From contig MU005965.1 in assembly GCA_010093745.1 (NCBI GenBank), positions 372,001-419,309 on the forward strand: DNA of 47,309 nucleotides. Direction: 5' to 3'. Under the pieces are notes generated by a model that made no database searches, was not told where the DNA came from, and was given only the letters and a program-made list of their open reading frames with translations. Every line of letters begins with the position of its first letter. Positions within the stretch are counted from its first letter, which is position 1. This DNA comes from Piedraia hortae CBS 480.64. Lineage: Eukaryota. A program made the translations under genes and the position numbers. Below are positions 7,616 to 34,084 of the stretch, piece by piece.

Positions 7616-7793
7616 GGAGGTAGCGAGCGGCGTTGTTTCTGCGGAGGTGCCAGCCCAGTGTTCGTGTTCCTGTTCGTCTGGAGATGTCGCAGTAGTTTGT
7701 CACGGGACCACCAACAACCGAATCCGTTGTAAGAATCAGCAGGCAACGCATGTAGAAATCAACGTCAGCTACAATCCTACAATCCACTTCACA

Positions 7794-16710: not shown

Positions 16711-16737
16711 TTTCTTTGTTCTGTCTCAGAGTATAAA
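16711..16737 (+). promoter_or_regulatory. TR-box-like HMG binding site (TTTCTTTGTTC, 16711-16721) and TATA box (TATAAA, 16732-16737)
   Basis: Exact match to the S. pombe Ste11 TR-box consensus, next to a TATA box, 171 bp upstream of ATG 16891. Confidence 0.55.
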
Positions 16738-16890
16738 CATCTCGAACTGCCCCCGCTACAATGTCTATTGTAATTTCGGTCAACATTTCCGCAAGAGCAT
16801 ACGAGGATTCATAAGCTGAGCTTGTTCCCTCCTTCGACATCAATCAGCAGCAACTCCCTGGCAGAACTAGATTAGACTTCCGCATTCATC

Positions 16891-18513
16891 ATGTTCTCAA
16901 CAACCCGATTCAAAGCCTCCGGCATCATCAAAGCCAGCAACGGCCATCAACAGAATGACAACTCTCCCATCTTTGGCACAGCCGCCACCGTCCCGAAGAC
17001 AGCCAAACCAACCCGTCGACCGGCAACACCTGGCCTCGGCCGAACAGCCCATACTCCCCAACGACTCCGTTCCAAGGCCAAGGTCGCTATACGATCTGCA
17101 GGACACAAAGCCAAGGCCATGGTATCCAAAGGTCAAGGTATCAGGCTCAGTTCAGAACCAGCCACACATGCCATGCACCAATCTGTCATTTCTTACTCTT
17201 CCCGTCCCACTACCGCTAACAGCAAGCTTACCACTCTGTCCAGCGTTACCCCAACCATCACCCGAACAAGCCCATCTGGTCGAAACTCACAGGTTGTCCA
17301 CCCAGCAAATCACATCCCATCAACACCACCACCCAGAAACAACGTTCGATTTTCCCACCCTGCCGTCACCAACGCCAGAATGTTATCCCCCCAATCAATC
17401 CGGAGCAACGGCCGACAGCTGCCTCCCTCCCCACAGCTCGACTCCATTGACTCCAGTGCCATTCCTGCCGCCGTGCGCGCTTCGGTTACTGACTGGAACA
17501 GGCTCAGCGGCGTCGAAAGAGTGAAAGCCATTAACAAAGTCGATGGCCTCGGATCTCTTGTCCCGCGAAAATTCCTTTGCGCCCTTGACGAGGTAGCCGA
17601 AGATCTAGACGATGAAATCCAAGAGGATCGCGCAGATGCCCTTTCCACTCTCGAAGGCCAGCATGAGATTAACCGCGAAGCTGCCCTCTCCGCCCTCGAG
17701 GGCAAGCCAAACATCCAGCTTGACCTCCCTGTCTTTCCTGCTGATTCCGAAACAGAGTTCAACCGCGTCGACGCCCTGTCTGTCCTCAATGGTGAGCACG
17801 AACTCAACTGCGAAGCTGCCCTCCTCGCCCTCGAGGGAACACCTTTCAATCCCAAAACAACAGCCCTCTCAAACGACGACACGACCTCCTACGAGCTGGG
17901 CTATATTCCCTACTCTGGCGAATTCTCCCCAGACTTCGACAACGGCGTGCCGGTTTTTCCGGTAAAGCACCGCAAGGGGGGGGCTTATGAATCGCAGACC
18001 TATCATCCTGTTAAGCAGGGTGTCGCGAGCGGAACGAGCAGGGTGAACAGGGTAAGCAGACCGAACTTCGCAAACGTTGTGAGTGGGACGGACAGGGAGT
18101 ATAAAGAGGGCGGGTCCCTCCCCCAAACGCGCTATTCTCCCCCAACCGGTAATCGCCAACACTCGATGATCACCCCCCTCCCCCAAACCCACTATATCCC
18201 CCCCACACTCACAACCCAGACCCACCCCACCCAAGGAACCCAACGGGCAGGTCTCCCAACCCAACCACGACCTCCTCAAACCCCACAGGCACTAAAGCGC
18301 AAAGCCGTCGGCTCATCTAACCAGATCCCAGCTCCGTTAGGTTCTCACCCCATGCCAATGTACCCGGATGATTTCAAGCCAAGACCAATAAAGGTGGCGA
18401 AGAGACCGGTGGATGTGAATAAACCTCTCCCGCCCTCGCCTGGACCGAGGTCGCCGAGGAGGTTCACGTACGGGGCGGTGCCGGGTGGGGGGCGTTGTAT
18501 GTTTAGTGTATGA
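16891..18513 (+). CDS. Hypothetical Pro/Ser/Thr-rich protein (540 aa) with an internal 45-aa-period duplication
   Basis: 1623-nt uninterrupted ORF, CATCATG start context, upstream TATA. No domain recognised. Confidence 0.75.
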   Translation: MFSTTRFKASGIIKASNGHQQNDNSPIFGTAATVPKTAKPTRRPATPGLGRTAHTPQRLRSKAKVAIRSAGHKAKAMVSKGQGIRLSSEPATHAMHQSVISYSSRPTTANSKLTTLSSVTPTITRTSPSGRNSQVVHPANHIPSTPPPRNNVRFSHPAVTNARMLSPQSIRSNGRQLPPSPQLDSIDSSAIPAAVRASVTDWNRLSGVERVKAINKVDGLGSLVPRKFLCALDEVAEDLDDEIQEDRADALSTLEGQHEINREAALSALEGKPNIQLDLPVFPADSETEFNRVDALSVLNGEHELNCEAALLALEGTPFNPKTTALSNDDTTSYELGYIPYSGEFSPDFDNGVPVFPVKHRKGGAYESQTYHPVKQGVASGTSRVNRVSRPNFANVVSGTDREYKEGGSLPQTRYSPPTGNRQHSMITPLPQTHYIPPTLTTQTHPTQGTQRAGLPTQPRPPQTPQALKRKAVGSSNQIPAPLGSHPMPMYPDDFKPRPIKVAKRPVDVNKPLPPSPGPRSPRRFTYGAVPGGGRCMFSV

Positions 18514-19305
18514 TATCTTCTATGATGTGCCTCGTTACTCTTTTGGAGGGTGTTGGGGGTTGTTGACTGGGCTTGGGGTATGGAGCAGGTAGGTTTTTCT
18601 TCCTTTTTTTTTGTACTCTCATTGGTGAATGAAGGGTTTGAGAAGGCGTTTGTGTAGCTTTAAAGATGCAATTTAGGTGGAAGAGACTGAGCTTCCAACG
18701 GCCTATATAGCGGTAGGTTTGGTTGACTTTTCATGACAAATTCTGTGCACAATATTGTCGATGTTTCTCCTGGTGGGAGGACGCTTTCTAGATCCAGGCC
18801 GGTGTTGGTCCAATGCTAGACCGAACAACGGCAGGAAATAAATTTCAGAGCCAAAACACATCTGAGCAAGCGTGTGTGTGTCAAGCAACAAAACATCCAG
18901 CCTGCGTCGCGATAGAGACATACAACACCTGGCGCCTTACTCTTACCGACAGCAGAATGCCTCGAGCTTTTTTTGGCCGATTCTTCCGTTTTTGAATGCT
19001 GCGCTCTTTTCAGAACGGTTCGCACCAACCTGCGCCGCCAACCTATCTCGAATGACTGCCTTGTCCTCGCCACTCATCTGCCCTCTCCCTGCGCAACGGC
19101 GTAACGCTCATGTGCATCAGAGATAACACTTGACGGCCTCCTTGTGGATAGACGCAATCCTATCGTCAACTCTCTCGGCCAACAAGTTTTCCCTACCATT
19201 TATCCGAATGATCGTTACCTGCCCATCCAAGTTATCGGCTGTGAAGCTAGAGCTTTGCTCTGGCTCATACGAGGGACTAGTCCGTGTTGCTAGCCAGTTG
19301 TTGCT

Positions 19306-19663
19306 TGTAGACATTTAGCTCCCATGGGTGAGAGTGCGCAGCGACCCAAAGAGGACGGAGCGATAGACGAAATCAGGGACAGTACAGACGTAGATGTATA
19401 TGAGTCAATACCGGTGTCGATATGACAGTGTGAATGACTATTTTATCTCTATGGGACGTCAGAATGAAAATTCTGTACGGGTGGGCCGGTGACGTCACGT
19501 CGCACGCTAGCAGGGCGCATTCACCATATCACATATGACATGACCCTGAGGGAAACCCTCTGTGAGGGGAAAACCTAGGGTGCAGCTGGTGGTGTAGGAG
19601 GTATCGCTGACTTGCTATGCAAGTGCCCCGCATACGCGCTAGTGGCGATGCTTGAATCCAACA
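19306..19663 (-). mobile_element. Solo LTR, family A (358 bp)
   Basis: Reverse complement starts TGTTGGATT and ends TCTACA; closely similar to 26393-26754 and 42340-42702. Flanks TTGCT/TGGCT (4/5 TSD match). Confidence 0.88.
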
Positions 19664-20000
19664 TGGCTCAGGATGATCGCTCGGCGAATCATACACCAAG
19701 CGTAACATGGCCTGACAAAAATAAATTCTCATCGTGTCATGCTGTTATTTGATGTAGCAATGGATGTGTATACGTGGAATGATTATTCCTATTTGAATGG
19801 GGTAACAAATGTCAGGTTTAGTGATGGAATATGGAGGTGGTGATCTAGCGTAGCGTCATGTGCAATATGGATACGGAGAGTGGGAACAAGAACAGCGTCT
19901 GTGGTTATGCTTATGCATTGAGTTGTATTGTCTTATTATCTTTAGGTCTGAAGGACGTGAGAGGCTGACCACAATTGGCCCATATTCCGGCACGGTCCGG

Positions 20001-20304
20001 ACCGCATTCGCTGTGATCACATCATGTGACGTGACCAGGTCCCAGGGGAAACATTCTCTGTGAGATAAAAACCCTGAGAAATTTTATGAGACGGTAAACC
20101 CTCTCATATAGTATACAGCCAGGTTGCAACTGCGAGCTTAGAAGTCGATGTTTTTCAGGGTCTGACCTCCATAGGAGGAGGTTTTTCCCTGGGACGAGGT
20201 ACGGTGCCGTTCATGCTCTGTGCGTGCTCGGTGACGTAGTTTCGGTGAATGCGGCTAGCCCTGGGTTAACGTGAGGTAAAGTTCCGCACTTTACCTCACC
20301 ACAT
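20001..20304. repeat. Two older diverged LTR relics related to families A/B, in opposite orientations (~20001-20085 minus, ~20139-20304 plus)
   Basis: Both retain the CAGGG...hairpin...CCCTGGG core and the GAATGCGG motif of family B. Confidence 0.6.
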
Positions 20305-20319
20305 GACCTCAACACCTAC

Positions 20320-20624
20320 TGTCAGAAGGATGTGGCACCCACCATGACCAGAACTATAGATAAAAGTCGAAACTTCTCAGGGTTTTTACCTCTATAGAGG
20401 AAGTTCCCCCTGAGACGGGTCATTGCCTCTCTCATGCGTAAGGGCATGGTGCGCTGACGTTGTCCTGGCGAATGCGGTTAGACTGAGATAGTGCGAGGAA
20501 GCTTTCGAACCTCACCTCACATAGACATAGACTTCTATGTTCACCTTTTAAGTCAAAGCTGAGTGAACACATTTGTCGTTGATGTCCGCTCCACTTCAGT
20601 CCTCGGAGGTTCACCCCTCCGACA
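20320..20624 (+). mobile_element. LTR, family B (305 bp)
   Basis: TGTCAGAAGG...CCTCCGACA inverted termini; highly similar to 45935-46239 and 26859-27134. No intact TSD (CCTAC vs ATGTT). Confidence 0.85.
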
Positions 20625-22547
20625 ATGTTCGATAGTCTAAACTATAGATTAATCGGCCCAGCAAGCAGAGCTAGCAGACTGAACTAAATTTAGGTCCAAC
20701 TACGGGCCACCGTCAGCATTCAGAACGCCGTCAGAATTTTAACCACAACCCTAAAGAGGAGAGCACCACGGACCTTTCCAAGAAAACCGAATGAAACTCT
20801 GTATACTTACTCAGCGGGTCCGCTGACGGATGAACAATCTGGGAAGATGTCGCGGTCATTTGCCTGAGAGGCAATTGTGTGCAGCGTCGTTTGTGGTATT
20901 TGGCTAGGCTCTTTCTCTAAGAATGTTTGCCGGGCAGGCAAACACTCTTATAGAGGGATCGCCCGCGACCATCTATTTCTTTTGCCCAGCGGCTCTCATC
21001 TGTTGTTTTTACGGAGGCATTATCCACCCACATCCCGGGAGAGAGAGGAGTTTTGTCAAATGCGGCTAGTCTGGACTTTGACCACGAAAGCTTGAGCGGC
21101 TCCTCAACCTCGCCAAGATCCTGGCAAGGAGAGGTATGCGATGAGCGGGATCTCGTAGGGTTTAGCGCTGAAAATCATCCACCACAAACTTTCTCTATGC
21201 CTGTTGCACATGTGAGCTGGTTGAGTTCGCGAGAGCCTGAAATGTATAATCGCTGGGGAGGAAGGTGAACCGGTATAGGATAGCAGATCACTGCTCTATG
21301 ACTTCGAGACTTCGATGACGCCTCTATGACAGAGGGCGCTCATGCCACCCTTCGAGTTCGAAAGACCGTCTTCAGGAGTTGTATTTCGCCTTTTCGGTGG
21401 CTCCTTAGTCATCATCCTTCGGACAAAATTCCAACTTCACATGGGCTACTCAAACAACGAATGCACGAGAAATCTGGATAAAAACTAGGACTCTGACGGG
21501 TCTGTGACCTCATCGTCCTCAAGCGATAGCCGCAGCACCGGTGAGTCTGAGCCAACTCGATATGCTTGTATCAAGGCAAGCGATGTGTGGGCTCAGCTGG
21601 ATGAACTAGATCGCGAGAGGGCTGCTACCGCTGAAGCGATTCTGATAGCAGCGATGAAGTTGAGAGTGCTGGCGAAAGTGGCAACGAGGATGATTAGGAA
21701 ATAGGAGATTCCAAGGGGTATAAGGATGTCGATGTGGGTGGCGAGGAGGACGCGGACGATAGATCGAAAGAGTCTGATGATGAAAATGGAGAGGACGATG
21801 TAAAGAATTTGGACGAATAAATGGTTGACCCTGGCGAGGAGGTTTGTGGCGTGGAAATGAAAGATTATGATGGAGATGATGAAGACGAGGAGATGGGTGG
21901 TATTGATCACCGGCCCAAAGAAGGGATGTAAGCCATTGTGAGCACTACTAGATAGTCGAAATGTGCATGCTATTCGGTCTCAAATTCCCAAGAGCTGCTC
22001 GAAGAGAGAACATTCAAACCAATAACAATTCTCTGGTTTGTTATCTTTTCTAGGTGATTGATCTTTAGATGTTAATGTGCACCAAGATTAGTTTCCTGGA
22101 TGATGCCAGCCCAGTTTGATCTATGTGGGATTACATCCAAAATATAAAGAGGCTCTCAGATGGAACCAAGTACACATTACTGACAATTCAAAATTCGGCC
22201 CATTATGCAGCACTGAGAACCAGACTGTCGCACACATTCCTCCTCCGCTTGCGTGAACAATGTTTCTCTAAGACTCTAATGCCAGGCGCAGCTAATACGG
22301 CAGCTAAAGGTCTTCGCCGCATTCGTGCGTAACAAACATCCCCCTCTCCCCCCCCCCCTCCCCCAACGGGGTTCCATCAACTTAGGCTTGTCATACTACT
22401 TTTATAAGCTCAGTCGCTTGGAAAATTTACCTTTGCGTGGGACCATCATTGTAATCACCGTTTAGGATTGATTGAGACATGAAAGGAGATCCCTACCAAA
22501 TTCTCGGGAGACACAAGAAAAAACCACCTATCTCCCTCATCTAAAAC

Positions 22548-23462
22548 CTAAAACCACCCATCAACCCTCAACTTTTTCATATTCTGTACAAACGCGCCAC
22601 AGGTGCACATCTTCTGATCACCAAACTTCTTCCAATCCACGCCCATCTTATTCTTCTTCGGCTGATACTTGTACCCCGGATTCAGCTTCGCATGACGTTC
22701 TTTTTCTTCCTTTGCACGTTGGTAAAATTCGTCCTTCACCTCCGCTGATGCCTCCTTCCACATCTTTCCCGCGATTGCGGAAATTTGTCCGTTGTCCCCG
22801 CCCACGACGCGCGAAATTGCCTGACTGTGCGCTTTGCGGAAGAGAATGAATGCGTTTGCGGGACGCTTGACGTGCGTAGTGGGCCCAGTGGGGGGTGTGC
22901 AAATGCAGTTTTGCGCAAGGGAGTGTGTGCGCTTGCGCTTCTTGGAGGAGTTCTCATCAAGGGTGGGGATGTCGAGAGTCTCTTCTGGGATAGGATGAAG
23001 GATTGAGCGTGCGGGCCCGGGGGTTGAAATTGAGGTAGTGCTGTTAGATGAATCAGTTGTTATGGATACACCTGTTGTGGTGAGTGTTTCGTACGAGGGC
23101 ATGTTGAAGGTGATGCCATCGTTGGGCATGTAAGGAGTAAAGCCTGGCAGCCCCTGATAGTTGATTGCGGTTCCAAAGTTCTCAAGTCCAGGGTTGGTGA
23201 ATACCTGCTGCTGCTGCTGCTGTCCAAAATCAGGTGTAGAGTTCATGAAAAGTGCTTCGATTTCAGGGTCAATGGGGGCTTGGCTGAACATTGGCTGACT
23301 GATGGCCTGGAAAGTGCCTGCGCCGTTCTTGTTGTAATCGTTGGAAAGAAAGTCCTGGGCGAGGATGGCGTCGAAAGCAACAGGGTCCAGCCCCATGAAA
23401 TCGGTGAAGGAAGTGTTGAAGTTGCCTTGCTGGAAGGGAGTGTTGATGAATGTTGTTGACAT
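22548..23462 (-). CDS. MATA_HMG-class HMG-box transcription factor (304 aa, intronless)
   Basis: HVKRPANAFILFRK...NGQISAIAGKMWKE...EEKERHAKLNPGYKYQPKK. NLS KKRKR; N-terminal Q/F/acidic region resembling an activation domain. Start at ATG 23462 (CATCATG), with TATATA at 23588-23583. Confidence 0.9.
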   Translation of the reverse strand: MSTTFINTPFQQGNFNTSFTDFMGLDPVAFDAILAQDFLSNDYNKNGAGTFQAISQPMFSQAPIDPEIEALFMNSTPDFGQQQQQQVFTNPGLENFGTAINYQGLPGFTPYMPNDGITFNMPSYETLTTTGVSITTDSSNSTTSISTPGPARSILHPIPEETLDIPTLDENSSKKRKRTHSLAQNCICTPPTGPTTHVKRPANAFILFRKAHSQAISRVVGGDNGQISAIAGKMWKEASAEVKDEFYQRAKEEKERHAKLNPGYKYQPKKNKMGVDWKKFGDQKMCTCGAFVQNMKKLRVDGWF

Positions 23463-23582
23463 GATGATGATGATGCTAGAAATGCTGAAATGAAAAAAAG
23501 AAAATTGCTGATGCTGATGCTGTGAGAAACGAAATGAAATGCAAGTGGAAAATTGTTCTGGTTGGAGGAGCTGAGGCTGGAG

Positions 23583-23719
23583 TATATATTCTGCGTAAGT
23601 CGCTTTGTTCAAGAGGACCATTACTCTGAACAATGCTGCGGCTGAAACTGACAGCTTTGTTGAGTTGATATAGCTCTTGTATTTGAACAAAGAAACAAGG
23701 CCGTATGCGCGCCATTGTT
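23583..23719 (-). promoter_or_regulatory. Promoter of the HMG gene: TATA plus five HMG-type sites, including a perfect TR-box
   Basis: Plus-strand CTTTGTT 23603-09, AACAATG 23629-35, CTTTGTT 23655-61, GAACAAAGAAA 23685-95 (TTTCTTTGTTC on the sense strand), CATTGTT 23713-19. Confidence 0.6.
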
Positions 23720-24289
23720 GCTTTAAGATGTCTCATGATGTTCAGCTGCCTTTTCCTGGGGAATTAAATGGGCTAGACCAGTAAGTGATCAAACAGAGAC
23801 TCAGATGAATGGAAAAAAATATTCTGTCTCAACTGCGGCTTGGAAGTAGCATCAACTGACCTTTTCGCGAGTCGGTTCCTATGTAGACTGAGTCACAAGA
23901 GGCCATTTGATCGCTCAAGATACGTTAGTGGTGCGGCCTTGTGGGTAACTTGCGCAGTATCATCCCTCATCGAGCATGCCCGCTCTTCCACGCAGCAACG
24001 GCCAAATATTCAAGGACAAGCAGCGGTAGGGCAACATCAAGATCTTGAAATCGGGGAGCTACCCGATACAGCAGAATAGTTCTAAATTCTGACAAGTGCG
24101 GGTAGAAAAGGGGAGAGTGGTGGTGTTATAATATATGCATCAGAAACTACCTGCCTTATCGATAAACATCGAAAATTCCTCTCACTAGAACTGCTGTGAA
24201 CGTGAAAAAATCTCCAGTTTGTGCCTGCTTACTCTGTTTAAGGTAAGCTCGGGCCAACTGCATGTACATGTCTAGTGTCGTTTTGTGCT

Positions 24290-24960
24290 TCCATCTTTGG
24301 GTCATCTGATACTGCTTTTGCAAGCACTTCCACAGCGGCTCTGACTTTTCCGGCTATTGCTGCTCGTCATAGACAGGGGCTAAAGACTTGATCATTTCAA
24401 TGGTCTCCCTGGACTTAGGCCACTGTAACTTATCATATCCTCGCATGCACTCTTCCAAAAGGAAAAGAAATTTGTCGGTTTCACGTCGAAATGCTATGTA
24501 GAAGTAGACGACCATTCTGAGTGCACAGAGAGTGGAATGGTTCTCTTCTCCCCAGGACCTGTTGAGACCTGCAATCCATTCTTTATACGCATTCCCCGCT
24601 TCGCTGTACCTTTCCAACTTGTAGAAGAAGTGACCCACGTCACCAATGCTTCTCTCGTACCCTCGTAAGGTAGGTCTCCGACCTTTCTTTATCCTTCATA
24701 GGCTCGTTTATACATGGCTAATGACGCTTCCCACTTCTCCTGTAGTTTGTAGAGAGTCCTCAAGCCGTCAAGGTAGTTAAGCGCAGACATATTACCGTAC
24801 CAATTGAGTTTTCGAACCCTTGGAGCGTATGCTACCATAATTGTTCTGCTTCCTTTAGCTTACCCTGCGTAAATAACAGCGCGCGGCTGGAATTGCTCTT
24901 GGCTGTCAGAGTCTCCAGGTGATTGGGGCCTAGAGTCCTCTCCAACTCCGCGATCGAGGC
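24290..24960 (-). pseudogene. Degenerate TPR-repeat gene (kinesin-light-chain/NLR-type TPRs)
   Basis: Fragments 'ELERTLGPNHLETLTAKSN', 'QGKLKEAEQLW*', 'LYKLQEKWEASLAMYKRAYEG*' and 'WGEENHSTL', broken by stops and frameshifts. Boundaries approximate. Confidence 0.7.
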
Positions 24961-25956: not shown

Positions 25957-26057
25957 GGCAACGTAGCAAAGTGGTTAATGCGATTGACTCGAATTTATCT
26001 ACGAGGGTTAGATATCAATTCCCTTCGGGGGCGTAGGTTCGAATCCTGCCGTTGTCG
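25957..26057 (+). tRNA. tRNA-Ser (anticodon CGA) with a 20-nt intron (25994-26013)
   Basis: Acceptor stem GGCAACG/CGTTGTC, discriminator G, D-arm GCA..TGC, anticodon stem ATTGA/TCAAT with loop CT-CGA-A|A, variable arm CCC-TTCG-GGG, T-loop GGTTCGAATCC, and a T6 Pol III terminator at 26063-26068. Confidence 0.95.
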
Positions 26058-26392
26058 TCTACTTTTTTGCTCCTAGTTGTCATGCCACAGGTTCTCTTCT
26101 GCCGCGTCTAGCTCAATATATTGGCTACATGATAGTACAATTCAGATATTTCACGGCTTTAACTTTTGAATTCGTGCCAAATACCTGCCTGAGAGAAGTA
26201 GGCGTTGGAATTTGCAGAGTTTTTATCTCGACGAGGATGCTCCCGCTGAAGCGAGATCACTTATCGTGGTTCACGTCACAGGATGTGGTCTCGTCGAATG
26301 CGGTCAAGGTCGTGCCGGAGTTTGGTATAACTTTGTCAAATAGGTCTAGACACCGCTTTCCTTGTTCTCTAGACATAGAATCACAAACACCA

Positions 26393-26754
26393 TGTTGGAT
26401 TCAAGCATCGCCGCTAGCGCGTATGCGGGGCACTTGCATAGCAAGTCAGCGATACCTCCTACACTACCAGCTGCACCCTAGGTTTTTCCCTCACAGAGGT
26501 TTTCCCTCAGAGTCATGTCATATGTGACATGGTGAATACGCCCCGCTAGTGTACGACATAACGTCACCGGCCCACCGGTACAGAATATTTATTCTGACGT
26601 CCCCTTACATGAAAACAATAGTCATTCACACTACCATGCTGCAACTGGTATTTGACTGACATACATCTACATCTTTCCTGTCCCTGATTCCGTCTATCGC
26701 TCCGTCCTCTTCGGGTCGCTGTGCACTCTCACCCACGAGAGCCAAATCTCTACA
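26393..26754 (+). mobile_element. LTR, family A (362 bp)
   Basis: TGTTGGATT...TCTACA; similar to the other family A copies. TSD not preserved (CACCA vs CATTC). Confidence 0.85.
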
Positions 26755-26858
26755 CATTCAACTCTAGAATCTCGACGAGCAAATTCACGAAGTTTGTCCC
26801 GAAAACATCCGGCCCTCTCCCGGAAGAGCAGCGTGTCATGTCCTTCAAAGTCCAGCCT

Positions 26859-27134
26859 CCAGAATCTTAGGTAGAAGTCGAAACTTCTCAGGGTTTTTGC
26901 CTCTATAGAGGAAGTCTTCCCTGAGACGGATCATTGTCTTGTTCATGCTTAAGGGCATGTTCGCTGACACTGTTCCTGGCGAATGCGGTTAGACTGAGGT
27001 AGTGTGGAGAACGTTTCGAACCTCACCTCACATAGAGATAGACATCTACATTCACCTTTTGGTCAGAGTTGAGTGCACACATTTGTCGTTGATATACATT
27101 CCGCTTTAGTCGTCGGAGGTTTAAACCTCCGACA
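26859..27134 (+). mobile_element. 5'-truncated LTR, family B
   Basis: Aligns to the 20320-20624 copy from CCAGAA onward; ends CCTCCGACA. Confidence 0.82.
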
Positions 27135-28151
27135 GCATCACTACAGGCATCGTTCTGATGGACTAAGTTTGCCGGAGGTCAGCCAAGTGGATGTTTTTCT
27201 TTCAAAAGATGGGACGACATGAAGAGTTTTGGACGACATGTGCCACGATTTACGAGCTTGCCTCGTCGATTTCTCTGTACGCCGTTTTTGGATGCACGAC
27301 TAAAGGCAACTTCGCAACCAAGACACGAAACAAAATTGCAGTTTCTGGTCTCAGAGCTACCGCAAAGCCTCGACAGACAGATTTTGGCTGTGGCTCTTTT
27401 GTCAGCGCATTACTGGGATAGATTGTGGATGTTGGGGTGTGATCAGGGCTCTAACACCAACTGAGATCCTCCACGACGAATGGCTCGAACACCACACCCA
27501 TCCGGTATTCCCAACACATGTGTACACCCTCCCGAGACAGATTTATATCGCTCCGGGAGACTTTTGGTGGAGTTGGCACCGAATATCTAACATGTTTGGA
27601 TCAGGGACGCCGAGAATATAAAGCGCCCCTGGAGGACAATCAAACAAGACTAGTTGCTGGTAACGGTTCAGGAAGCATGGTTTGAGGTGTGATGGGGTTT
27701 CTATGTATGGGTTTTGTACGTCACGGGGTGTGATTGATGCTGTGTGGTGCAGTGGGTTTTGTATGTACGGTTCCCACATCGCGCGGTGGAGTGTAGCAGC
27801 TGTTTAGAAGTCAAGGTAAGCAGGCTTATATACGGTAGTTGTTCCAGTTTGGGATCAAGTTTTGGGGATTTTTACGCTTTAAGCCTGTCCCGAATAAAGT
27901 CGTTTCACGTTGCAGGCAACATCTCTGAAATTCATCCATCGTCACACTTATTGTTGCCAGGCAAAATCATATCGTGAAAACTAAAATTCCAGGTGCAACA
28001 CATCATCCACCCAAACTCGGCACATGCATCTATACGAAACATCAAACTTCATCACACCAAACTAATCACAGGCAAAGAATTCCTTGAAAAGGACAATAAG
28101 GGTATCATCAAACATCTATCCAGCCTCATCAAAAAAAAAAAAAAAAAAAAA

Positions 28152-30464
28152 TCAAACCTTCGGAAAAGGCCTCATCTCCACAAACCCCCTCCTATCTCCC
28201 CCCGTCCGCTGTCTTCCCAACCAATTATACTTCAATGCCTGCGTAAGCCTCTCAATCACACTTTGCCCCGCATCACCTGTATGACAACTCGCGAGAACAT
28301 AGAGACACTGCAGCATCAGCGCGGCGGTTTCCGTGATCTTCGCGGGGTCGGCGAAGAAGGCTGGCGGCTCTGCGGTTTCGGTTAAGGCACCGAGGGGGGG
28401 GTTCGGACTACTGAGATGGTGGGTGCCTGTTCCGAATGAGCCGGCGGATGTGTTTGACGTTGCGCGGCTGCGGCTTGCGAGGCTGGGACCGCCGGAGGAG
28501 GAGCTTGCTGCGTCGAGGAGGGTGGAGGCTTGAGAGTTGAAACTCGCTAAGTGCGGACTTAGACTATCTGCTGTGCCGGGGCGGTCGTGGGTGGATGGTT
28601 TGTGGGGTTTATCTGTGCTGCTGGTTGTGTGAAAGTTTTCGAGGGAGAGTCGGCTGAAGATGGACATGAGGTTTTCGTGCTTGGGGAGGATGACGGAGTC
28701 GCGGAAGGAGACGAGCGCGATGTGGCGGATATCAAAGTCGTCGCTCACGGTGGGTTTGCTTGTAGAGCTGCTTGATGAGGCTGGTCGGTCTTCGTTTTTA
28801 AGGTACTCTGGCACGCTTCGCCAGAATTCTTTTGCTTCGCGGTCGGTTAGGATTGTACCTAGACCTTTGAATTCGAGGTCCAAGGGGAGAAATACGGCTT
28901 GGAGGAAGGGCATAATTGTGCCGTAAACACCGGTCCAGAGTCCCACGAGACGTGTGACGAGTCTGTCGTCTGGAACACCACGCAGGCTTTGGTGGGCTAG
29001 TTGCATGAAGCCAGTTTGGAGCAGTTCTCGTACGTCTTCTACGAGAAGAAGTGGTGCTTTGCGTTGTATGCACCGGCGTATGTGCACGCTGACCAACATG
29101 TTGAAGTCTTCGATGGGTGTCCGTAAATCTTCGGATTGGAACAGCTTCAGTAGGCGAGCTTTGAGCAGTGGCCAAGCATCATCGGGACCCATGCCGGGTA
29201 GACCCATCTGGGCACCTATGTTGCTAAAAGTCTGGGCCGAAGCAGAGGGCACGGCATCAGATGGGAAGATATTGGACGAAGAGCTTGGCAGCGGTGTCAC
29301 CGAATCACTATAATAAGACCCCAGATTCAAATCACCTCCCGTAGCAGATGTGTGGGAGACTATGGGAGTAAGATCGAGCTTTGCAGCTGCCGCTGCCTTT
29401 TCCTCCTTTCTCTTCTCGCTTTTCCTATCACGAAGGGCCTTTGCCCCGTGCCGTAGATCGAAGCCGGACATGGTTTTAGAGAAGCTGCCCGGTCCGGGGG
29501 AGTCTGGAGTGAATGAATAGAGGGGAGCAGGTTTATCAGGATTTGTAGGTTGAGAATTCGAATGAGCGGAGGATAGGGGCAGATGGAGCGGTTCATCCTT
29601 GTGCTTCAGCTTTTGCCGAGAGAGGAAGTGGTGCTTCTTCTCCTTCTCGGCCACAGGAGGCACCAGCGTAGCCGTTGAGGAATTGTCATTAGCAGACAAG
29701 GGCCCGGGCGTAATGTCTATGGGACTAGGAACAGCAGCAGGCACAGTAAGACCGGCCCGTAAAAGGCTGGCACTCTTGTTGGGAGACGGAATTCCGCCCC
29801 CTGCATCCTTTTCCTTTCCGAGGCTGATGTTCTTTGGCTTGAAAAGCTTCATCCTCGACCGCTGCGGCCGGGGGCCCTTCTCCGGTGGCGCTGCAGTCGT
29901 ACTCGTCGTCGGCTTTGGCCCAGGGGACGGCGGCGGCTTCTTCCCGGGAAAGGCCGCACTCGCTGCTGAAGCTGCTACCACGGCGCCCGCCGACAGCGAC
30001 TGCGGGCTCTGAACCTCGCTAGACTGGGCCGTCGTGTTGAGTGGCGCGAGACCAGTATACGACCGCTTTCGCTCGGCGGGCGGTGGGGCGGAGGGCGGAG
30101 GGGGGGGCGACAAGCGGTGCATGGCTGCTTGCGCCGCGCTCTGTGACGCCGTCAGCCCCGCAGCGGGCGTGTGCAGCAGCGATGGCTCAAAGTATCCCTG
30201 GCTGTGTTGGCGCCGGTGCGAGCGGCCGTCGGACGCGTTCCGCTGGTGGGGCGGAACCCCGCTGCCTGTCGAAGGCCGCGCGGTCTGCGACATGGCCGGC
30301 GGCTTAGCCGTCAGCGGTGTAGCTACACTGTTAGAAGATTCAGACGCCGTTGATACGCTGCTTCCACTGCGCTGCGACGCCTGCGACAGCGATGACAATG
30401 ATCCCCGCGCTCGCGGCGTATGTGGGTGCGGCGGCGGCCGGAGAGGAGGTAGCTTATTGCTCAT
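28152..30464 (-). CDS. hbrB: HbrB-domain protein (TORC2-associated Bit61/PRR5 family)
   Basis: Long S/P-rich N-terminus, then 'DDAWPLLKARLLKLF...LRTPIEDFNMLVSVHI...LWTGVYGTIMPFLQAVFLPLDLEF...FRDSVILP' and C-terminal 'LKYNWLGRQRTGGDRRGFV'. First in-frame ATG at 30464. Confidence 0.87.
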   Translation of the reverse strand: MSNKLPPLRPPPHPHTPRARGSLSSLSQASQRSGSSVSTASESSNSVATPLTAKPPAMSQTARPSTGSGVPPHQRNASDGRSHRRQHSQGYFEPSLLHTPAAGLTASQSAAQAAMHRLSPPPPPSAPPPAERKRSYTGLAPLNTTAQSSEVQSPQSLSAGAVVAASAASAAFPGKKPPPSPGPKPTTSTTAAPPEKGPRPQRSRMKLFKPKNISLGKEKDAGGGIPSPNKSASLLRAGLTVPAAVPSPIDITPGPLSANDNSSTATLVPPVAEKEKKHHFLSRQKLKHKDEPLHLPLSSAHSNSQPTNPDKPAPLYSFTPDSPGPGSFSKTMSGFDLRHGAKALRDRKSEKRKEEKAAAAAKLDLTPIVSHTSATGGDLNLGSYYSDSVTPLPSSSSNIFPSDAVPSASAQTFSNIGAQMGLPGMGPDDAWPLLKARLLKLFQSEDLRTPIEDFNMLVSVHIRRCIQRKAPLLLVEDVRELLQTGFMQLAHQSLRGVPDDRLVTRLVGLWTGVYGTIMPFLQAVFLPLDLEFKGLGTILTDREAKEFWRSVPEYLKNEDRPASSSSSTSKPTVSDDFDIRHIALVSFRDSVILPKHENLMSIFSRLSLENFHTTSSTDKPHKPSTHDRPGTADSLSPHLASFNSQASTLLDAASSSSGGPSLASRSRATSNTSAGSFGTGTHHLSSPNPPLGALTETAEPPAFFADPAKITETAALMLQCLYVLASCHTGDAGQSVIERLTQALKYNWLGRQRTGGDRRGFVEMRPFPKV

Positions 30465-31443
30465 CCTGCATTTTGTTTGGTCGGCGCCCTGCTCTGCGTC
30501 GCCGCCCGCGTCCGTCGTTCCGGGATCACGTGATGATGTTGTAGATCTGATAAGATGCGGTAGTGGACGATGTAGCGAATCTTGAGTAGATGAGAATGAA
30601 TAGATGCCACAAATTGTCAGCCGTGTACATTTATACATGCAATAGCTAGCGGGGACGCACCAACCCGACTCCAGCGGAGAGGGATGGCCCGAATCAACCG
30701 CACAAACAGCACATCCGTCTCATAGCTCAGACCCAATGAAGGCCTTTGCAAACGCTCGTTATCCGTCAGCAGCTGAAATCTCCGTGGGCTAATCGCACAG
30801 AGACCAGGCGAATGAGCGACCATACCCAAGTCGGTGCCGGAGCAGCGACTCATACCACACCCCGAATGTGTGGCAACAAGTGTCCGGCTCATTAGCCCCT
30901 CGGCGCTGTGCCTGTCCAGTTCATCTCGATGCCTCGCTGCGATTATTTGGCTAACTGCCCAAGATTCCTTTCTCCTCTAACACGTGGTTCTGCATCTCTC
31001 ACTGAGAGTTCCAGAACCGGTGCTTGGATCAAGAAAAAAAGTACCAGCGCCCAAAAAGGCCGCGAAAGCAGTGAGGTATCTGTACAAGCCGACAGGCATT
31101 GGGGTAGAGGAGCGGGATGGAGGGGGCGACGAGTACCGTGACATTACCCACGAAATACCTATGTGTAGGTGGTCAGCGCAGCCCCATCGACTTCTGTGTG
31201 CACTCACATCGCTATTCTTTCTACTAACTCTGGTTGGATACCGAGCAAAACTTTCCGTACACCCACGGATGATTTGCGTTGGTCTCGGAAGTTCTCTCGC
31301 ATTCCATCCGGGATAGTCTGAAGAGGGTTTCGCAAACGCTTGCAGATAGACAGGAGTCATAACTCTGCCACAAACAAAAAGATATCTTGTCCGTAACATT
31401 GCAGCTCGAAAAGCATTGACAAGGGTTACACCATAAAAACGAA

Positions 31444-33876
31444 TTAGAAATTGACTTGGCGAGGAGAAGCAAAAGGATCATGCCTCCTGTACGTGGGGCT
31501 ATGTCCCCACAGATTCTTGTGTGCTTGTTGCTGTAGTCTATTGGCCGATGGAGATAAGATTGGAGCAGTGTCGTTGTGGTCGGCATAGCTTGAGGTTCTG
31601 AGGTGGGACGGCCGGCGAATCGCCAAATCTAAGGCAGGTCCATTGACGTTCATCGATTCTGCTCGTGGGCTGAAACCGGTGTGCAAGATTGGACTTGTGA
31701 TTTGGAGGTCCGGTGGCGGGTTTTTCCTTAGCGTATACGCCTGTCCGTTGTATCGAGCCTTGAATCCGTTGTCTTGCTCGTGAACGGAGGCTGAGGCGAA
31801 TGTCTTGCCAGAGGTCGCCTGCTCATAGGTGGGCACACTGTGCATCGCAGTATCTTGCAATTCGTAATTCTCCGCAGAAAACGACTTGCGGGGCGATGGG
31901 CGGGATAGGTACAAGTCCTCATCACCCCATTTGAGCATCAGAAACCCTGCTCTAAACAGGCCAATCAAAGCAACAACGAACCAAATCAGCAGTACGCAAG
32001 TCGAGATGATGGCTTCCTGCCGTACGGCCTTGTACAGGGCGTTGGTGACGTGGAATACGGCGTCTGAGATCTCGTTGGCAGCCGAGCCATTTGTACCTGT
32101 GCTGAGGATATCCTCTTTGGAGCCTGAGACCTTCTGAATGGCGCCGAGGCTGAACGTGTCATTGGACACCAAGGGAAAGTCGACGTGGGCATGATCGTGC
32201 ACCCATGTCAAGCCATGCTCGATGCCCTGAATCTTTAGCAATATCAAGCAGTTTAGCACGTCCAGGATGGGGTTGTACAGTATTGTCCCTCCAAAAGTCT
32301 TGTTCAGCGTGCCCACCATCTCATCCACAAACACGTTGAGTGTGTGGTTGACCGCCAACGTGGTAGTGTTGACCCAGCCAAAGACATCGTGGTTTATTCT
32401 AGTATTGGTATCGTTAATCATGCCGTTGACACCGACGGACCACTGCTGGCTAGCGTTGTTCAGCTGGAAAATCACCTTGTCTGTGAAATCAACCACTTGG
32501 TTCTCGAGCACAGGTACCTCCTTGTCTATTGACTTGAGCAGGATATACTGACACAAACAACTCAATAAGCCAGCGACGGCAAGTGATAAGACAAACAGAG
32601 CAGGCACCGTTGTGGCATAGGCGATGCTCCAACGTACAAGGGCCTTTCGCCGGGAAGACTTAAAAGGACGAGAGAGGGTAAGGCCTGCGGAGGACGTGTA
32701 AGGGCGAGAGACGAGGTAAACGGCATCCATAGGATCAACGGTTTCCGTTTGAACCAGCCTTGCCCGCTCTTTCATAAACTTGTACCTCTTGATTTCGCGC
32801 CAAGCCATTGGGACGCATGCAAGGATTGCAAGGGTGATGAGAACTCCGAGAAAAACTTTTTGGGCCAAGTGCTCAATGCTGACCAGTGCATCGAAGAAGT
32901 CGTTGACGCCGTTGTTGTCGGAGCAAAACGTTAACTGCTGCTTGTCCGGAACAGGGAAGACATCCGGATTCATCTTATAATTTGGCAGGCCTTCTCGCAG
33001 CAACTTTTTGACCTCTTCAAATGGCCATTTAATGGCGGTATCTGTGAAATTCTTAACTTCTGCAAATGTTGGAATTGACGAATTGAGCTTCTGGAGGTCG
33101 GCATCGTAGCCAGAAGGTATCTCAAGGTGATCTAGCTTGTCAATCTCGCTGGTCAGGTCAATTGTGGGCGGCTTAATATTCTTGCCGGCGAAAAATGAGG
33201 CTACTTTGTCCAAGTCCTTCAGGAAGTCGTTCATCCCATTCTCAAACACCTGTGCAGCATCACCCAGATCGTTTCCCACCGCTTTGACCGTAGTATTGAG
33301 AAAGTTTCCAACGTCTTCCGCAACGCTTAATGCAACGTGCAGGCTTCCGCTGACGGCGAGCGTGATCAGACAGACGTATGTGTTTGTCAAAAGATTGATG
33401 ATGAAGACGACGATTTCCTCTACCGCGGTGACGGACAAGAGTAGCATCTCTATGAGCCCATTAATTGCCTTCTCAATTCCATTCGCCGTCAGCTGATTCA
33501 CGCCCTGACTCATATAGTGAGGCATGCTCGCCATTGCCGAGCCAACATTCTCCACACTGGTGCACATGCTGAGAGCATGTTTTCTCGCCATGCCCAGATT
33601 ATCGTCCAAAGTAGCAATCGCAATCAAAGTTCTGACCAGAACAAGAAGCAAAAGAACGGTCCAACGATTTATCCACGTTTGTGAAAGCCTCGCTCGAAGT
33701 CCAAGGTGTGGCGTAACGTATAAATCTTGTTGTAAGGGTGGCCGTGATACATCCTGTGCAGCATAGTAGCCACGCTTCTCATGGTCGCCAGCGGAGAGGG
33801 AAGGCGGCGCAGAATTCAGGTTTTGCTGTTGGTACGTCGAGCCCATTGCAGGCAGAGTGGTGGGTACATCTGCCAT
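31444..33876 (-). CDS. PRM1: Plasma membrane fusion protein Prm1 (mating cell fusion)
   Basis: 'TPHLGLRARLSQTWINRWTVLLL', 'CTSVENVGSAMASMPHYM', 'TYVCL', 'DVFGWVNTTT', 'CLILLKIQGIEHGLTWVHDHAHVDFP', with several TM segments. First ATG at 33876. Confidence 0.94.
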   Translation of the reverse strand: MADVPTTLPAMGSTYQQQNLNSAPPSLSAGDHEKRGYYAAQDVSRPPLQQDLYVTPHLGLRARLSQTWINRWTVLLLLVLVRTLIAIATLDDNLGMARKHALSMCTSVENVGSAMASMPHYMSQGVNQLTANGIEKAINGLIEMLLLSVTAVEEIVVFIINLLTNTYVCLITLAVSGSLHVALSVAEDVGNFLNTTVKAVGNDLGDAAQVFENGMNDFLKDLDKVASFFAGKNIKPPTIDLTSEIDKLDHLEIPSGYDADLQKLNSSIPTFAEVKNFTDTAIKWPFEEVKKLLREGLPNYKMNPDVFPVPDKQQLTFCSDNNGVNDFFDALVSIEHLAQKVFLGVLITLAILACVPMAWREIKRYKFMKERARLVQTETVDPMDAVYLVSRPYTSSAGLTLSRPFKSSRRKALVRWSIAYATTVPALFVLSLAVAGLLSCLCQYILLKSIDKEVPVLENQVVDFTDKVIFQLNNASQQWSVGVNGMINDTNTRINHDVFGWVNTTTLAVNHTLNVFVDEMVGTLNKTFGGTILYNPILDVLNCLILLKIQGIEHGLTWVHDHAHVDFPLVSNDTFSLGAIQKVSGSKEDILSTGTNGSAANEISDAVFHVTNALYKAVRQEAIISTCVLLIWFVVALIGLFRAGFLMLKWGDEDLYLSRPSPRKSFSAENYELQDTAMHSVPTYEQATSGKTFASASVHEQDNGFKARYNGQAYTLRKNPPPDLQITSPILHTGFSPRAESMNVNGPALDLAIRRPSHLRTSSYADHNDTAPILSPSANRLQQQAHKNLWGHSPTYRRHDPFASPRQVNF

Positions 33877-34074
33877 GGAAGATTGGAGTATTAGAAACGT
33901 TTCTTCGTTAAGCACATGCCAACCAGCGGCGATAGGTCAGGGTCAATAACGATTTGAACCGTGAACAGAAATAAAAAAACTGCAGGTGAGAGAAAGCATT
34001 ACACGTGCATGTCAAGTTTGACGGAAAAGAAAACCAAAGTGGAAGACAATGAATGGGGAAACTTCAACAGATGC

Positions 34075-34084
34075 ATCAAAGAAA
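34075..34084 (-). promoter_or_regulatory. TR-box-like HMG site TTTCTTTGAT upstream of PRM1
   Basis: ATCAAAGAAA on the plus strand, 199 bp upstream of the PRM1 ATG; 9/10 match to the TR-box. Confidence 0.45.

What the first reader, a model, noticed from the sequence alone, without database searches (positions are those of the whole stretch)
16711..34084. Candidate linked HMG/TR-box mating regulon: orphan gene, HMG factor and PRM1
Seen: the identical 11-mer TTTCTTTGTTC lies on the sense strand 171 bp upstream of the orphan ATG (16711) and 224 bp upstream of the HMG-gene ATG (23685-95); TTTCTTTGAT lies on the sense strand 199 bp upstream of PRM1 (34075-84). Orientation is the same and spacing similar in all three. 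Reading by eye I found the full 10-mer nowhere else in the window. Known: TTTCTTTGTT is the TR-box bound by the MATA_HMG factor Ste11 in S. pombe, where prm1 is mating-induced. Inference: three of the four intact protein genes in this island may form a physically linked sexual-development module with its own regulator and an uncharacterised effector.
Basis: partly seen in the sequence, partly recalled or inferred. Interest (0 to 1): 0.78.

Follow-up and report, generated by a model that had tools for sequence, protein, structure and literature searches.

The report
HMG-factor binding sites before three fungal genes
A short DNA word known to be bound by fungal sex-regulating HMG proteins does sit in front of an HMG-factor gene, an orphan gene and the cell-fusion gene PRM1 of this fungus, but this looks like the ordinary, already described HMG regulatory code rather than a special linked gene module.

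Summary
TTTCTTTGTTC occurs twice in the window, sense-oriented before the orphan ORF and the HMG-box gene, and TTCTTTGAT once before PRM1. Two of 12 window genes carry sense TTCTTTGTY within 350 nt of the ATG; composition-matched simulations reach that in 60 of 20,000.

New evidence:
- The HMG gene's site is one of five HMG core sites in 117 bp, never reached in 1000 simulations.
- The orphan's site lies 10 nt before a TATAAA.
- In 38 distinct PRM1 relatives the TR-box is strongly enriched in the 600 nt before the ATG: 11 sense hits in 20.5 kb against 3 in 156.5 kb elsewhere, and rank 1 of 56 scrambles.

Corrections:
- The linked-module idea is not supported. No relative has the HMG gene or the orphan near PRM1.
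- The HMG gene is a short member of a lineage-specific family and sits between high-copy repeats.

HMG sites in HMG-gene promoters are already described in S. pombe and Podospora (PMC3730723). Verdict: a new member of a known kind, of moderate interest.

The parts
16711..16721 (+). TR-box-type HMG site TTTCTTTGTTC before the orphan gene. It matches TTCTTTGTTY, and RACAAAGAA on the other strand.
   Evidence: consensus from PMC3713066 and PMC3730723
16732..16737 (+). TATAAA, 10 nt after the TR-box and 154 nt before the orphan ATG
   Evidence: read; same layout as reported for the S. pombe map4 TR-II box (PMC3713066, passage)
16891..18513 (+). Orphan ORF of 540 aa: no Pfam family and no homologue found, with coding-like codon usage
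   Evidence: X2 contig 16515-19447 covers it.
23603..23719 (-). Cluster of five WWCAAWG HMG core sites before the HMG gene, starting at 23603, 23629, 23655, 23686 (the TR-box 23685-23695) and 23713. A sixth AACAAT lies at 23552-23557.
   Evidence: Reached in 0 of 1000 block-wise Markov simulations; the maximum was 4, in 28 of 1000.
23583..23588 (-). TATATA between the site cluster and the HMG ATG, followed by a pyrimidine-rich tract
   Evidence: read
22548..23462 (-). HMG-box gene of 304 aa, box at residues 197-270. It is a short member of a family with a QxCxC...HMG...FGxxxCTCGA signature and ends 17 residues after CTCGA.
19020..21011 (.). High-copy repeat on the left of the HMG segment
   Evidence: X1 depth 349-1352 against about 13; repeat pairs
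26324..27651 (.). High-copy repeat on the right of the HMG segment, partly inverted and partly direct relative to the left one
   Evidence: X1 depth 277-3692 against about 13. Pairs I1, I2 and D1-D3.
34075..34083 (-). TTCTTTGAT variant site, 17 nt inside the PRM1 5'-leader intron. The core ATCAAAG is not RACAAAGAA.
34035..34050 (-). ATTGT, then 6 nt, then CTTTG, inside the same intron. It resembles the ATTGT...CTTTGT pairs seen in relatives.
34202..34208 (-). TTCTTTG heptamer about 100 nt before the intron donor (exon 1 or promoter)
33870..34100 (-). 231-nt GT..AG intron in the PRM1 5' leader. It removes ATG 33876.
   Evidence: X2 joint 33869/34101 (1 contig, short side 25 letters). The same intron is seen in relatives.
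31444..33846 (-). PRM1 coding sequence from the likely start ATG 33846
28152..30638 (-). HbrB-domain gene, the conserved neighbour of PRM1, with no HMG site in its 350-nt upstream region

Best explanation
The two identical 11-mers are most likely real binding sites for MATA-type HMG-box transcription factors, of the Ste11 TR-box / Podospora PaHMG5 type, placed in core-promoter positions. At the orphan gene the site sits 10 nt before a TATAAA. At the HMG gene it is one of five HMG core sites packed into 117 bp just before a TATATA. That suggests the HMG gene is switched on by HMG proteins: itself, the canonical Ste11/PaHMG5 orthologue, or MAT1-2-1.

PRM1 is probably a conserved direct target of such factors across this group of Dothideomycetes. 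TR-box words recur in its 5' region in many relatives.

The three genes share a widespread regulatory code. They are not a conserved, self-contained linked module. Their closeness here is lineage-specific: an orphan gene, a shortened HMG paralogue and repeats lie next to the old PRM1-HbrB pair.

Shown: sequence, positions, statistics, conservation, splicing and family membership. Inferred: binding, the direction of regulation, and the link to sexual development.
For: - Motif identity and uniqueness.
- Promoter-position statistics: 60 of 20,000 simulations reach 2 of 12 genes.
- Five-site cluster at 23603-23719: reached in 0 of 1000 simulations, while the total WWCAAWG count is ordinary, 54 against 56.3 simulated.
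- TATA elements directly after the sites: read.
- Published biology (PMC3730723, passages): PaHMG5 binds (A/G)ACAAAGAA in the upstream regions of HMG-box and mating-type genes, including its own, as Ste11 does. PMC3713066 (passages): a TR-box next to the TATA box is critical in mat1-Pm.
- PRM1 relatives, 38 distinct 5' regions from 79 loci. In -350..-80, CTTTGT is the most widespread 6-mer (21 of 38; simulated 3.9, sd 1.9, max 10 of 1000) and ATTGTC is second with 19. In the 600 nt before the ATG, TTCTTTGTY occurs 11 times in 20.5 kb against 3 in 156.5 kb elsewhere, and the antisense form 4 against 0. The true word ranks 1 of 56 permutations, found in 12 of 38 on either strand.
- Both ORFs have coding-like GC3 (0.59 and 0.62 against about 0.48 in noncoding DNA) and a positive codon score only in the annotated frame.
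Against: - No binding or expression test was possible, and no whole genome is held, so the genome-wide frequency of the site is unknown.
- The bare count of RACAAAGAA in the window is not significant: 19 of 100 shuffles reach 2. In Podospora about 5% of genes carry the word (PMC3730723).
- The sites lie in transcribed sequence in the available RNA-like data. X2 contig 16515-19447 runs over the orphan's site, the PRM1 site is intronic, and in cDNA-like contigs of relatives the exon-1 site lies 220-275 nt inside leaders of 420-560 nt.
- The sense strand is favoured in PRM1 5' regions (35 CTTTGT against 17 ACAAAG), which a pure DNA site does not require.
- PRM1 5' regions hold several other equally widespread words, for example CTGAAAC in 22 of 38 and GCGACCA in 20. 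The 38 groups share ancestry, so the counts are not independent.
- The window's PRM1 site is a variant (A at position 8), and Podospora PaHMG5 bound ATCAAAG-type sites weakly (PMC3730723).
- Orthologous promoters of the HMG gene and the orphan could not be fetched.
Confidence: 0.5

Rival explanations
1. Self-contained linked regulon. The local HMG protein activates itself, the orphan gene and PRM1, and the three genes are kept together as a sexual-development module.
For: The same 11-mer stands before the HMG gene and the orphan. There is an auto-regulation-like site cluster at the HMG gene. All three genes lie within 18 kb. The HMG domain is intact, with the family signature.
Against: No synteny: 0 of 79 PRM1 loci from relatives hold the HMG family or the orphan, 9 of them with about 10 kb downstream. 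PRM1 relatives keep TR-boxes without a linked HMG gene, so another HMG factor must serve there. The local protein lacks the C-terminal half of its family, 304 aa against 527-662. The segment is flanked by high-copy repeats.
Confidence: 0.12
2. Chance plus composition. Pyrimidine-rich sense strands of fungal promoters and leaders throw up TTCTTTG-like words, and the reader picked the ones that resemble a known motif.
For: 10 of the word's 11 letters are pyrimidines. The three upstream regions are the most pyrimidine-rich of the 12 (0.57-0.60). RACAAAGAA count: 19 of 100 shuffles reach 2.
Against: Composition-matched simulations reach 2 of 12 genes in only 60 of 20,000 runs. The cluster of five sites is reached in 0 of 1000. 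The word ranks 1 of 56 same-composition permutations in PRM1 relatives, with a median of 0 for the permutations.
Confidence: 0.13
3. An RNA-level or leader-level element. The conserved UCUUUGU and AUUGUC words in the PRM1 leader and intron act in the transcript, on splicing of the 5'-leader intron, on upstream-ORF control or on stability, and not as DNA sites.
For: The words lie in transcribed leader or intron. There is a sense bias of 35 to 17. The leaders carry 5-15 upstream ATGs and a conserved intron, which suggests post-transcriptional control.
Against: The antisense form is also enriched before PRM1: ACAAAG 0.83 per kb against 0.06-0.42 elsewhere, and RACAAAGAA 4 against 0. The words match a known DNA-binding consensus over 9-10 positions. 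At the orphan and the HMG gene the sites stand just before TATA elements. The position within leader or intron varies between lineages.
Confidence: 0.1
4. A relic. The HMG gene is a shortened, transposon-associated copy of a family member that is decaying or already silent, and its site cluster is inherited from the parent gene's promoter and has no present function.
For: It is about half the family length, with no C-terminal remnant downstream. High-copy repeats lie on both sides. No orthologue was found at this place in relatives.
Against: The ORF is open, with coding-like codon usage in both halves. The HMG box and both CxC motifs are intact. Short members exist elsewhere: Piedraia hortae 178 aa, and an HMG-box protein of Zasmidium cellare 308 aa. 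The promoter looks complete.
Confidence: 0.15

Closest known systems
S. pombe Ste11 and its TR-box TTCTTTGTTY, with auto-activation of ste11 (Sugimoto et al. 1991, as cited in PMC3713066 and PMC3730723)
   Same: There is an exact 10-mer match at two sites. One site is 10 nt before a TATA box, as reported for the map4 TR-II box. An HMG gene carries the site in its own upstream region.
   Different: Orthology of the local HMG protein to Ste11 was not tested. It belongs to a lineage-specific CxC-flanked family and has its box near the C-terminus. No binding data exist. I could not verify that S. pombe prm1 is a Ste11 target.
Podospora anserina HMG-box network: PaHMG5 binds (A/G)ACAAAGAA before KEF1, mtHMG1, PaHMG5, PaHMG8, FMR1 and FPR1 (PMC3730723)
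   Same: It is a filamentous ascomycete. The same 9-mer stands before an HMG-box gene. Weaker ATCAAAG-type sites stand before downstream mating genes, as at PRM1 here. The motif is enriched in the 1 kb before start codons.
   Different: Here five sites are packed into 117 bp. PRM1 is not among the Podospora genes analysed in the passages I read. The fungus is a Dothideomycete. The local factor is a short family member.
PRM1, the plasma-membrane fusion protein of fungal mating (S. cerevisiae Prm1; N. crassa PRM-1, Fleissner et al. 2009, seen only as a cited reference in PMC3125171)
   Same: It is 67% identical over 97-98% of its length to proteins named PRM1 in Teratosphaeriaceae and relatives.
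   Different: In budding yeast PRM1 is pheromone-induced (PMC3718343, passage). That this works through Ste12 is recalled. Here the conserved words are HMG-type, together with a TGAAAC-type word, and they lie in a long, intron-bearing leader rich in upstream ATGs.
MAT1-2-1 mating-type gene and idiomorph
   Same: It has a MATA-like HMG box. It is a unique segment that is gene-poor, flanked by repeats and absent from syntenic places in relatives.
   Different: None of the usual MAT flanking genes (APN2, SLA2, recalled) is among the Pfam hits of the window. No intron interrupts the HMG box. One family member in Friedmanniomyces carries two tandem copies of the module.

Membership tests
TR-box / (A/G)ACAAAGAA HMG-factor binding site | Match to TTCTTTGTTY (PMC3713066) and to RACAAAGAA (PMC3730723) | tested here: met
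   Met at 16712-16721 and 23685-23694. Not met at the PRM1 site, TTCTTTGAT, with core ATCAAAG.
TR-box / (A/G)ACAAAGAA HMG-factor binding site | Lies before the start codon of the regulated gene, near the core promoter | tested here: met
   The sites are 169 and 222 nt before the ATGs. A TATAAA stands 10 nt after the orphan's site and a TATATA follows the HMG cluster. The PRM1 site is inside a 5'-leader intron. True transcription starts are unknown.
TR-box / (A/G)ACAAAGAA HMG-factor binding site | Bound by a MATA-type HMG protein; expression depends on it | not testable with these tools
   Needs EMSA, DAP-seq, ChIP or mutants.
TR-box / (A/G)ACAAAGAA HMG-factor binding site | Conserved before orthologues | tested here: met
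   PRM1 only: TTCTTTGTY in 12 of 38 distinct relatives on either strand, rank 1 of 56 permutations, and 11 against 3 hits by region. For the orphan and the HMG gene no orthologous DNA could be fetched.
MATA-type HMG-box transcription factor (Ste11 / PaHMG5 / MAT1-2-1 group) | HMG box of the sequence-specific class | tested here: met
   Pfam HMG_box 2.4e-14. Best solved relatives are SOX30, SOX9, SRY and capicua. The nearest named relatives outside its family are annotated after S. pombe Mc.
MATA-type HMG-box transcription factor (Ste11 / PaHMG5 / MAT1-2-1 group) | Orthology to Ste11 / PaHMG5 / FMF-1 | not tested
The closest relatives are unnamed 'HMG box domain-containing' proteins of Extremus, Friedmanniomyces and Piedraia.
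PRM1 plasma-membrane fusion protein | Full-length homology to named PRM1 proteins | tested here: met
   67% identity over 97-98% of the query; 1799 hits among 8000 candidates, with PRM1 names on many.
Physically linked co-regulated gene cluster | Gene neighbourhood kept in relatives | tested here: not met
   0 of 79 loci hold the HMG family or the orphan. Only PRM1-HbrB (5 loci) and DUF726-PRM1 (2 loci) are kept.
Physically linked co-regulated gene cluster | Co-expression of the members | not testable with these tools
   Only contigs of one RNA-like run were available, and they cannot rank genes.
MAT1 mating-type locus | Flanked by APN2 / SLA2-type genes; conserved intron in the HMG box (features recalled) | tested here: not met
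   No such Pfam families among 12 long ORFs and 88 ORF pieces. The HMG box is read without interruption.

The most novel reading that the evidence does not exclude
PRM1 of these Dothideomycetes may be run by a two-promoter switch. A long leader with 5-15 upstream ATGs and a conserved intron would be made constitutively and translated poorly. HMG factors bound to TR-box sites inside the leader or intron would fire a downstream start, giving a short, translatable mating-time mRNA. In this window such an mRNA would begin after the intronic sites, so that the in-frame ATG 33876 could be used. Alongside this, a lineage-specific, shortened, CxC-clasped HMG protein with its own five-site promoter may act as a local feedback regulator or competitor on the same sites.
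Probability: 0.12. Interest if true: 0.62.

Novelty: new member of a known kind. Interest (0 to 1): 0.38.

Why it matters
If the sites work, the Ste11/PaHMG5 code known from fission yeast and Podospora extends to Dothideomycetes, a class with many apparently asexual rock-inhabiting and plant-pathogenic fungi. It would also name PRM1 as a conserved direct target. That would give a simple sequence marker for retained sexual or cell-fusion circuitry. The orphan gene would become a candidate lineage-specific mating or fusion gene. The conserved intron-bearing PRM1 leader, rich in upstream ATGs, is a testable case of leader-level control of a cell-fusion gene. None of this overturns current views.

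Tried and rejected
- Whole-genome motif scan: no genome is held for this window.
- Homologues by word-indexed search: none for the HMG protein within 167-532 aa, and none for the orphan within 297-945 aa. The exhaustive search then found the HMG family at 495-662 aa.
- C-terminal remnant of the HMG family downstream of the stop: none by tblastn.
- Pfam on 88 ORF pieces of the gene-less stretches: only a weak Clr2 piece, plus a DotM_C match at E 0.0087, below the curated cut-off.
- RNA evidence: no listed holder is on record as RNA. X2 is called RNA by a guess. It shows three GT..AG joints, so I treat it as RNA-like.
- X2 depth is 0 over 23004-24331 and 0.6-2.1 over the rest of 21012-26323, which includes the HMG gene.
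- X2 contig 16515-19447 covers the orphan and its site, but contigs show neither start nor strand.
- Searching the metagenome records behind the loci for the HMG family: not held.
The stored homologue P0134 gave only generic HMG-box clusters.
- Earlier notes of this scan: nothing near this place, by words, by sequence or in relatives.
- Literature on prm1 as a Ste11 or HMG target: searches found no statement. PMC1592531 is not held. Supplements were not opened.
- MAT1 locus reading: rejected for lack of the flanking genes.
- Shared ancestry of the two 11-mer sites: rejected, because their flanks differ.
- Script slips: a time-out and an N in the window. Both were re-run.
Full report
What the window is. 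The long ORFs encode ordinary fungal proteins: SART-1, an S10 carboxypeptidase, RPS6 with an F-box protein, an alpha/beta hydrolase, ARMH3, DUF726 and an AP sigma fragment. After these come an ORF without any family (16891-18513, +), an HMG-box ORF (22548-23621, -), an HbrB-domain ORF (28152-30638, -) and an 810-aa ORF (31444-33876, -). The last is PRM1. It is 67% identical over 97-98% of its length to proteins named 'plasma membrane fusion protein prm1' in Oleoguttula, Meristemomyces, Friedmanniomyces and other Dothideomycetes. No whole genome is held. The stretches 18.5-22.5, 23.7-28.1 and 34-47.3 kb have no long ORFs. Of their 88 ORF pieces, only a weak Clr2 piece and a below-cut-off DotM_C match gave any Pfam hit.

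The observation. TTTCTTTGTTC stands at 16711-16721 (+) and 23685-23695 (-) and nowhere else; 0.03 matches are expected and 0 of 100 shuffles reach 2. TTCTTTGWT adds 34075-34083 (-), making 3 against 1.04 expected, with 8 of 100 shuffles reaching 3. Each site is in the sense orientation of the gene downstream. The flanks of the two 11-mers differ, so they are not copies of one segment.

Is it more than chance? An identical 11-mer pair is in itself ordinary in 47 kb (my arithmetic). The published 9-mer RACAAAGAA occurs twice against 0.88 expected, and 19 of 100 shuffles reach 2. What is unusual is the position. I simulated the 350-nt sense-strand upstream regions of 12 genes, each with its own first-order composition. 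At least two genes carry TTCTTTGTY in 60 of 20,000 runs, and at least three carry TTCTTTGWT in 0 of 20,000. The second pattern was chosen after the fact. The other nine genes carry none.

The HMG gene's site is part of a cluster. Five matches to the general HMG core WWCAAWG start at 23603, 23629, 23655, 23686 and 23713, spanning 23603-23719 (117 bp), and a sixth AACAAT lies at 23552-23557. The window's total of such cores is ordinary, 54 against 56.3 simulated. Yet five within 120 bp was never reached in 1000 block-wise Markov simulations; four was reached in 28. X1 depth over this stretch is about 13, so it is single-copy.

Promoter anatomy, read from the sequence. At the orphan gene the TR-box (16712-16721) is followed after exactly 10 nt by TATAAA (16732-16737), 154 nt before the ATG. 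At the HMG gene the cluster is followed by TATATA (23588-23583) and a pyrimidine-rich tract before ATG 23462. The in-frame ATG at 23621 lies before this TATA and inside the cluster, and it encodes a low-complexity extension, so 23462 is the likelier start.

What the word is known to be. PMC3713066 (passages read) calls TTCTTTGTTY the TR-box bound by Ste11. It reports that a TR-box immediately before the TATA box is critical in mat1-Pm, and that the proximal TR-box of map4 lies 10 nt before the TATA box, although deleting the map4 boxes did not abolish expression. PMC3730723 (passages read) found (A/G)ACAAAGAA before KEF1, mtHMG1, PaHMG5, PaHMG8, FMR1 and FPR1 of Podospora anserina. It showed by gel shift that PaHMG5, the Ste11 orthologue, binds these sites, including the one before its own gene. 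It also found weaker binding to ATCAAAG-type sites before pheromone genes, and counted the 9-mer before 502 genes (about 5%). The window's 11-mer contains AACAAAGAA. The PRM1 variant has the ATCAAAG core.

The HMG protein. The box (residues 197-270 of 304) matches Pfam HMG_box (2.4e-14) and is closest to SOX30, SOX9, SRY and capicua among solved structures. The word-indexed search found nothing within 167-532 aa. The exhaustive search found 3968 proteins at E up to 0.001. A group of about 30, 495-662 aa long, aligns to residues about 171-302 at 40-50% identity. Named members are 'HMG box domain-containing protein' of Extremus antarcticus and Friedmanniomyces simplex (the latter with two tandem modules) and 'HMG-box' of Piedraia hortae. 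The family shares S-I/L-x-Q-x-C-x-C before the box and F-G-x-x-x-C-T-C-G-A after it, and the window's protein has both. It ends 17 residues after CTCGA and lacks the roughly 250-residue C-terminal half. tblastn finds no remnant of that half downstream. The next-nearest named proteins, from early-diverging fungi, are annotated after S. pombe Mc, which fits a MATA-type box. Orthology to Ste11/PaHMG5 could not be tested. Codon usage supports coding in both halves.

The orphan. It has no Pfam family and no homologue within 297-945 aa or in the 79 loci from relatives. GC3 is 0.59 against about 0.48 in noncoding DNA, and the codon score is positive only in the annotated frame. A 2933-nt contig of run X2 covers 16515-19447.

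Repeats. X1 depth rises from about 13 to 349-1352 over 19020-21011 and to 277-3692 over 26324-27651. These stretches share inverted pairs (19453-19666 with 26390-26603 at 93%; 19306-19408 with 26652-26754) and direct pairs (20348-20624 with 26859-27134). The HMG gene therefore lies in a unique segment between copies of high-copy elements.

PRM1 5' end. Run X2 shows three short GT..AG joints, all fitting the minus-strand genes: 16008/16059, 31156/31206 and 33869/34101. The last skips 33870-34100. This intron removes ATG 33876 and contains both TTCTTTGAT (17 nt after the donor) and ATTGTcttccaCTTTG. That joint rests on one contig with a short side of 25 letters, but relatives confirm it. The 5-kb contig L011 matches the long contig L058 at 100% and 99.8% except for 337 nt that end 33 nt before the ATG. 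The same holds for L004 against L009. An all-against-all comparison gives such a 230-345 nt gap, ending about 30 nt before the ATG, in L009, L019, L058, L024, L029/30/36, L010/35, L050/51 and L078. So some loci are spliced (cDNA-like) and some genomic. The cDNA-like leaders are 420-560 nt long and carry 5-15 upstream ATGs. The likely start codon in the window is 33846.

Conservation of the word before PRM1. Of the 79 loci, 62 gave a start codon and 53 had at least 300 nt upstream. With the window these 54 sequences collapse to 39 distinct groups, 38 of them relatives.
- In -350..-80, the most widespread 6-mer is CTTTGT (21 of 38; simulated 3.9, sd 1.9, max 10 in 1000) and the second is ATTGTC (19). 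The top 7-mers are TCTTTGT (17), CTTTGTT (13) and CTATTGT (12). Antisense ACAAAG occurs in 5.
- By region, sense CTTTGT is 1.71 per kb in the 600 nt before the ATG against 0.32-0.48 elsewhere. TTCTTTGTY occurs 11 times in 20.5 kb against 3 in 156.5 kb, and RACAAAGAA 4 against 0.
- Among the 56 permutations of TTCTTTGT(+Y), the true word ranks first: 9 of 38 sense, 12 of 38 on either strand. Ranks 2 and 3 are shifted versions of it, and the median over permutations is 0.
- The sites sit in exon 1 in some lineages (L001, L002, L003, L007, L011, L049) and inside the intron in others (L024, L029, L050, L078). L050 has TTCTTTGTT about 19 nt after the donor, much as in the window.

Caveats on this conservation. 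The groups share ancestry. Other words are as widespread, for example CTGAAAC in 22 and GCGACCA in 20. The sense strand is favoured.

Linkage. PRM1-HbrB adjacency is kept in L018, L040, L063, L064 and L067, and DUF726 lies before PRM1 in L051 and L052. No locus holds the HMG family or the orphan, including 9 loci with about 10 kb downstream and 10 with about 10 kb upstream. The proximity in this window is therefore lineage-specific.

Reading. The two 11-mers are best read as working sites of the known Ste11/PaHMG5 type. The HMG gene would be auto- or cross-regulated by HMG factors, and PRM1 would be a conserved HMG target in this class. The 'linked regulon with its own regulator' is not supported. 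Binding, the direction of control and the tie to sex remain inferred. The rivals are chance plus composition, an RNA-level leader element, and a relic promoter of a decaying gene copy. Each is weighed in its own section above.

Noticed in passing
window 33870-34100 (-); L058 9613-9949; L009 6290-6612: PRM1 has a conserved 230-345 nt intron in its 5' leader that ends about 30 nt before the start codon. Spliced leaders of relatives are 420-560 nt long and carry 5-15 upstream ATGs. In the window, exon 2 begins with an out-of-frame ATG (33869) whose short ORF overlaps the main start.
   Followed up: partly
window 22548-23000 (-); P0130, P0133-P0137, P0144: A Mycosphaerellales-type HMG family has a QxCxC motif before the box and FGxxxCTCGA after it. 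These four cysteines could clasp the two ends of the HMG fold, perhaps around a metal. The window's member lacks the whole C-terminal half.
   Followed up: partly
window 19020-21011 and 26324-27651: High-copy repeats (DNA-run depth up to 3692 against about 13) flank the HMG segment, partly inverted (93% over 214 nt) and partly direct. Many variant copies exist in both runs.
   Followed up: partly
window 25957-26057 (+): A tRNA gene of 101 nt (Rfam tRNA, 50.3 bits), long enough to hold an intron, lies in the unique segment next to the right-hand repeat.
   Followed up: no
window 147-382 (-): Match to Rfam Afu_309, an Aspergillus fumigatus small RNA (76 bits, full model length).
   Followed up: no
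window 34100-47309: 13 kb before PRM1 has no long ORF and no Pfam hit apart from a weak Clr2_transil piece (35078-35371, -, E 3.6e-05) and a below-cut-off DotM_C match (33958-34194, +, E 0.0087). Several consecutive short minus-strand ORFs at 34276-36581 suggest a broken or intron-rich gene. An X2 contig covers 34127-35600.
   Followed up: no
window 31157-31205 (-): A 49-nt GT..AG joint in X2 lies between the PRM1 stop codon and HbrB. It is an intron in the PRM1 3' region or in an unannotated small gene.
   Followed up: no
L001-L079, 600 nt before PRM1: TGAAAC / CTGAAAC is as widespread as the HMG word (CTGAAAC in 22 of 38; TGAAAC 1.12 per kb against 0.03-0.16 elsewhere). It resembles the yeast Ste12 pheromone-response element (recalled), which suggests combined Ste12 and HMG control of PRM1.
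   Followed up: partly
window 15195-15484: A run of 290 N lies inside the DUF726 gene.
   Followed up: no
window 6699-8879 (+): One 726-aa ORF carries both an RPS6e domain and an F-box-like domain. It is probably two genes read through, or a mis-joined frame.
   Followed up: no
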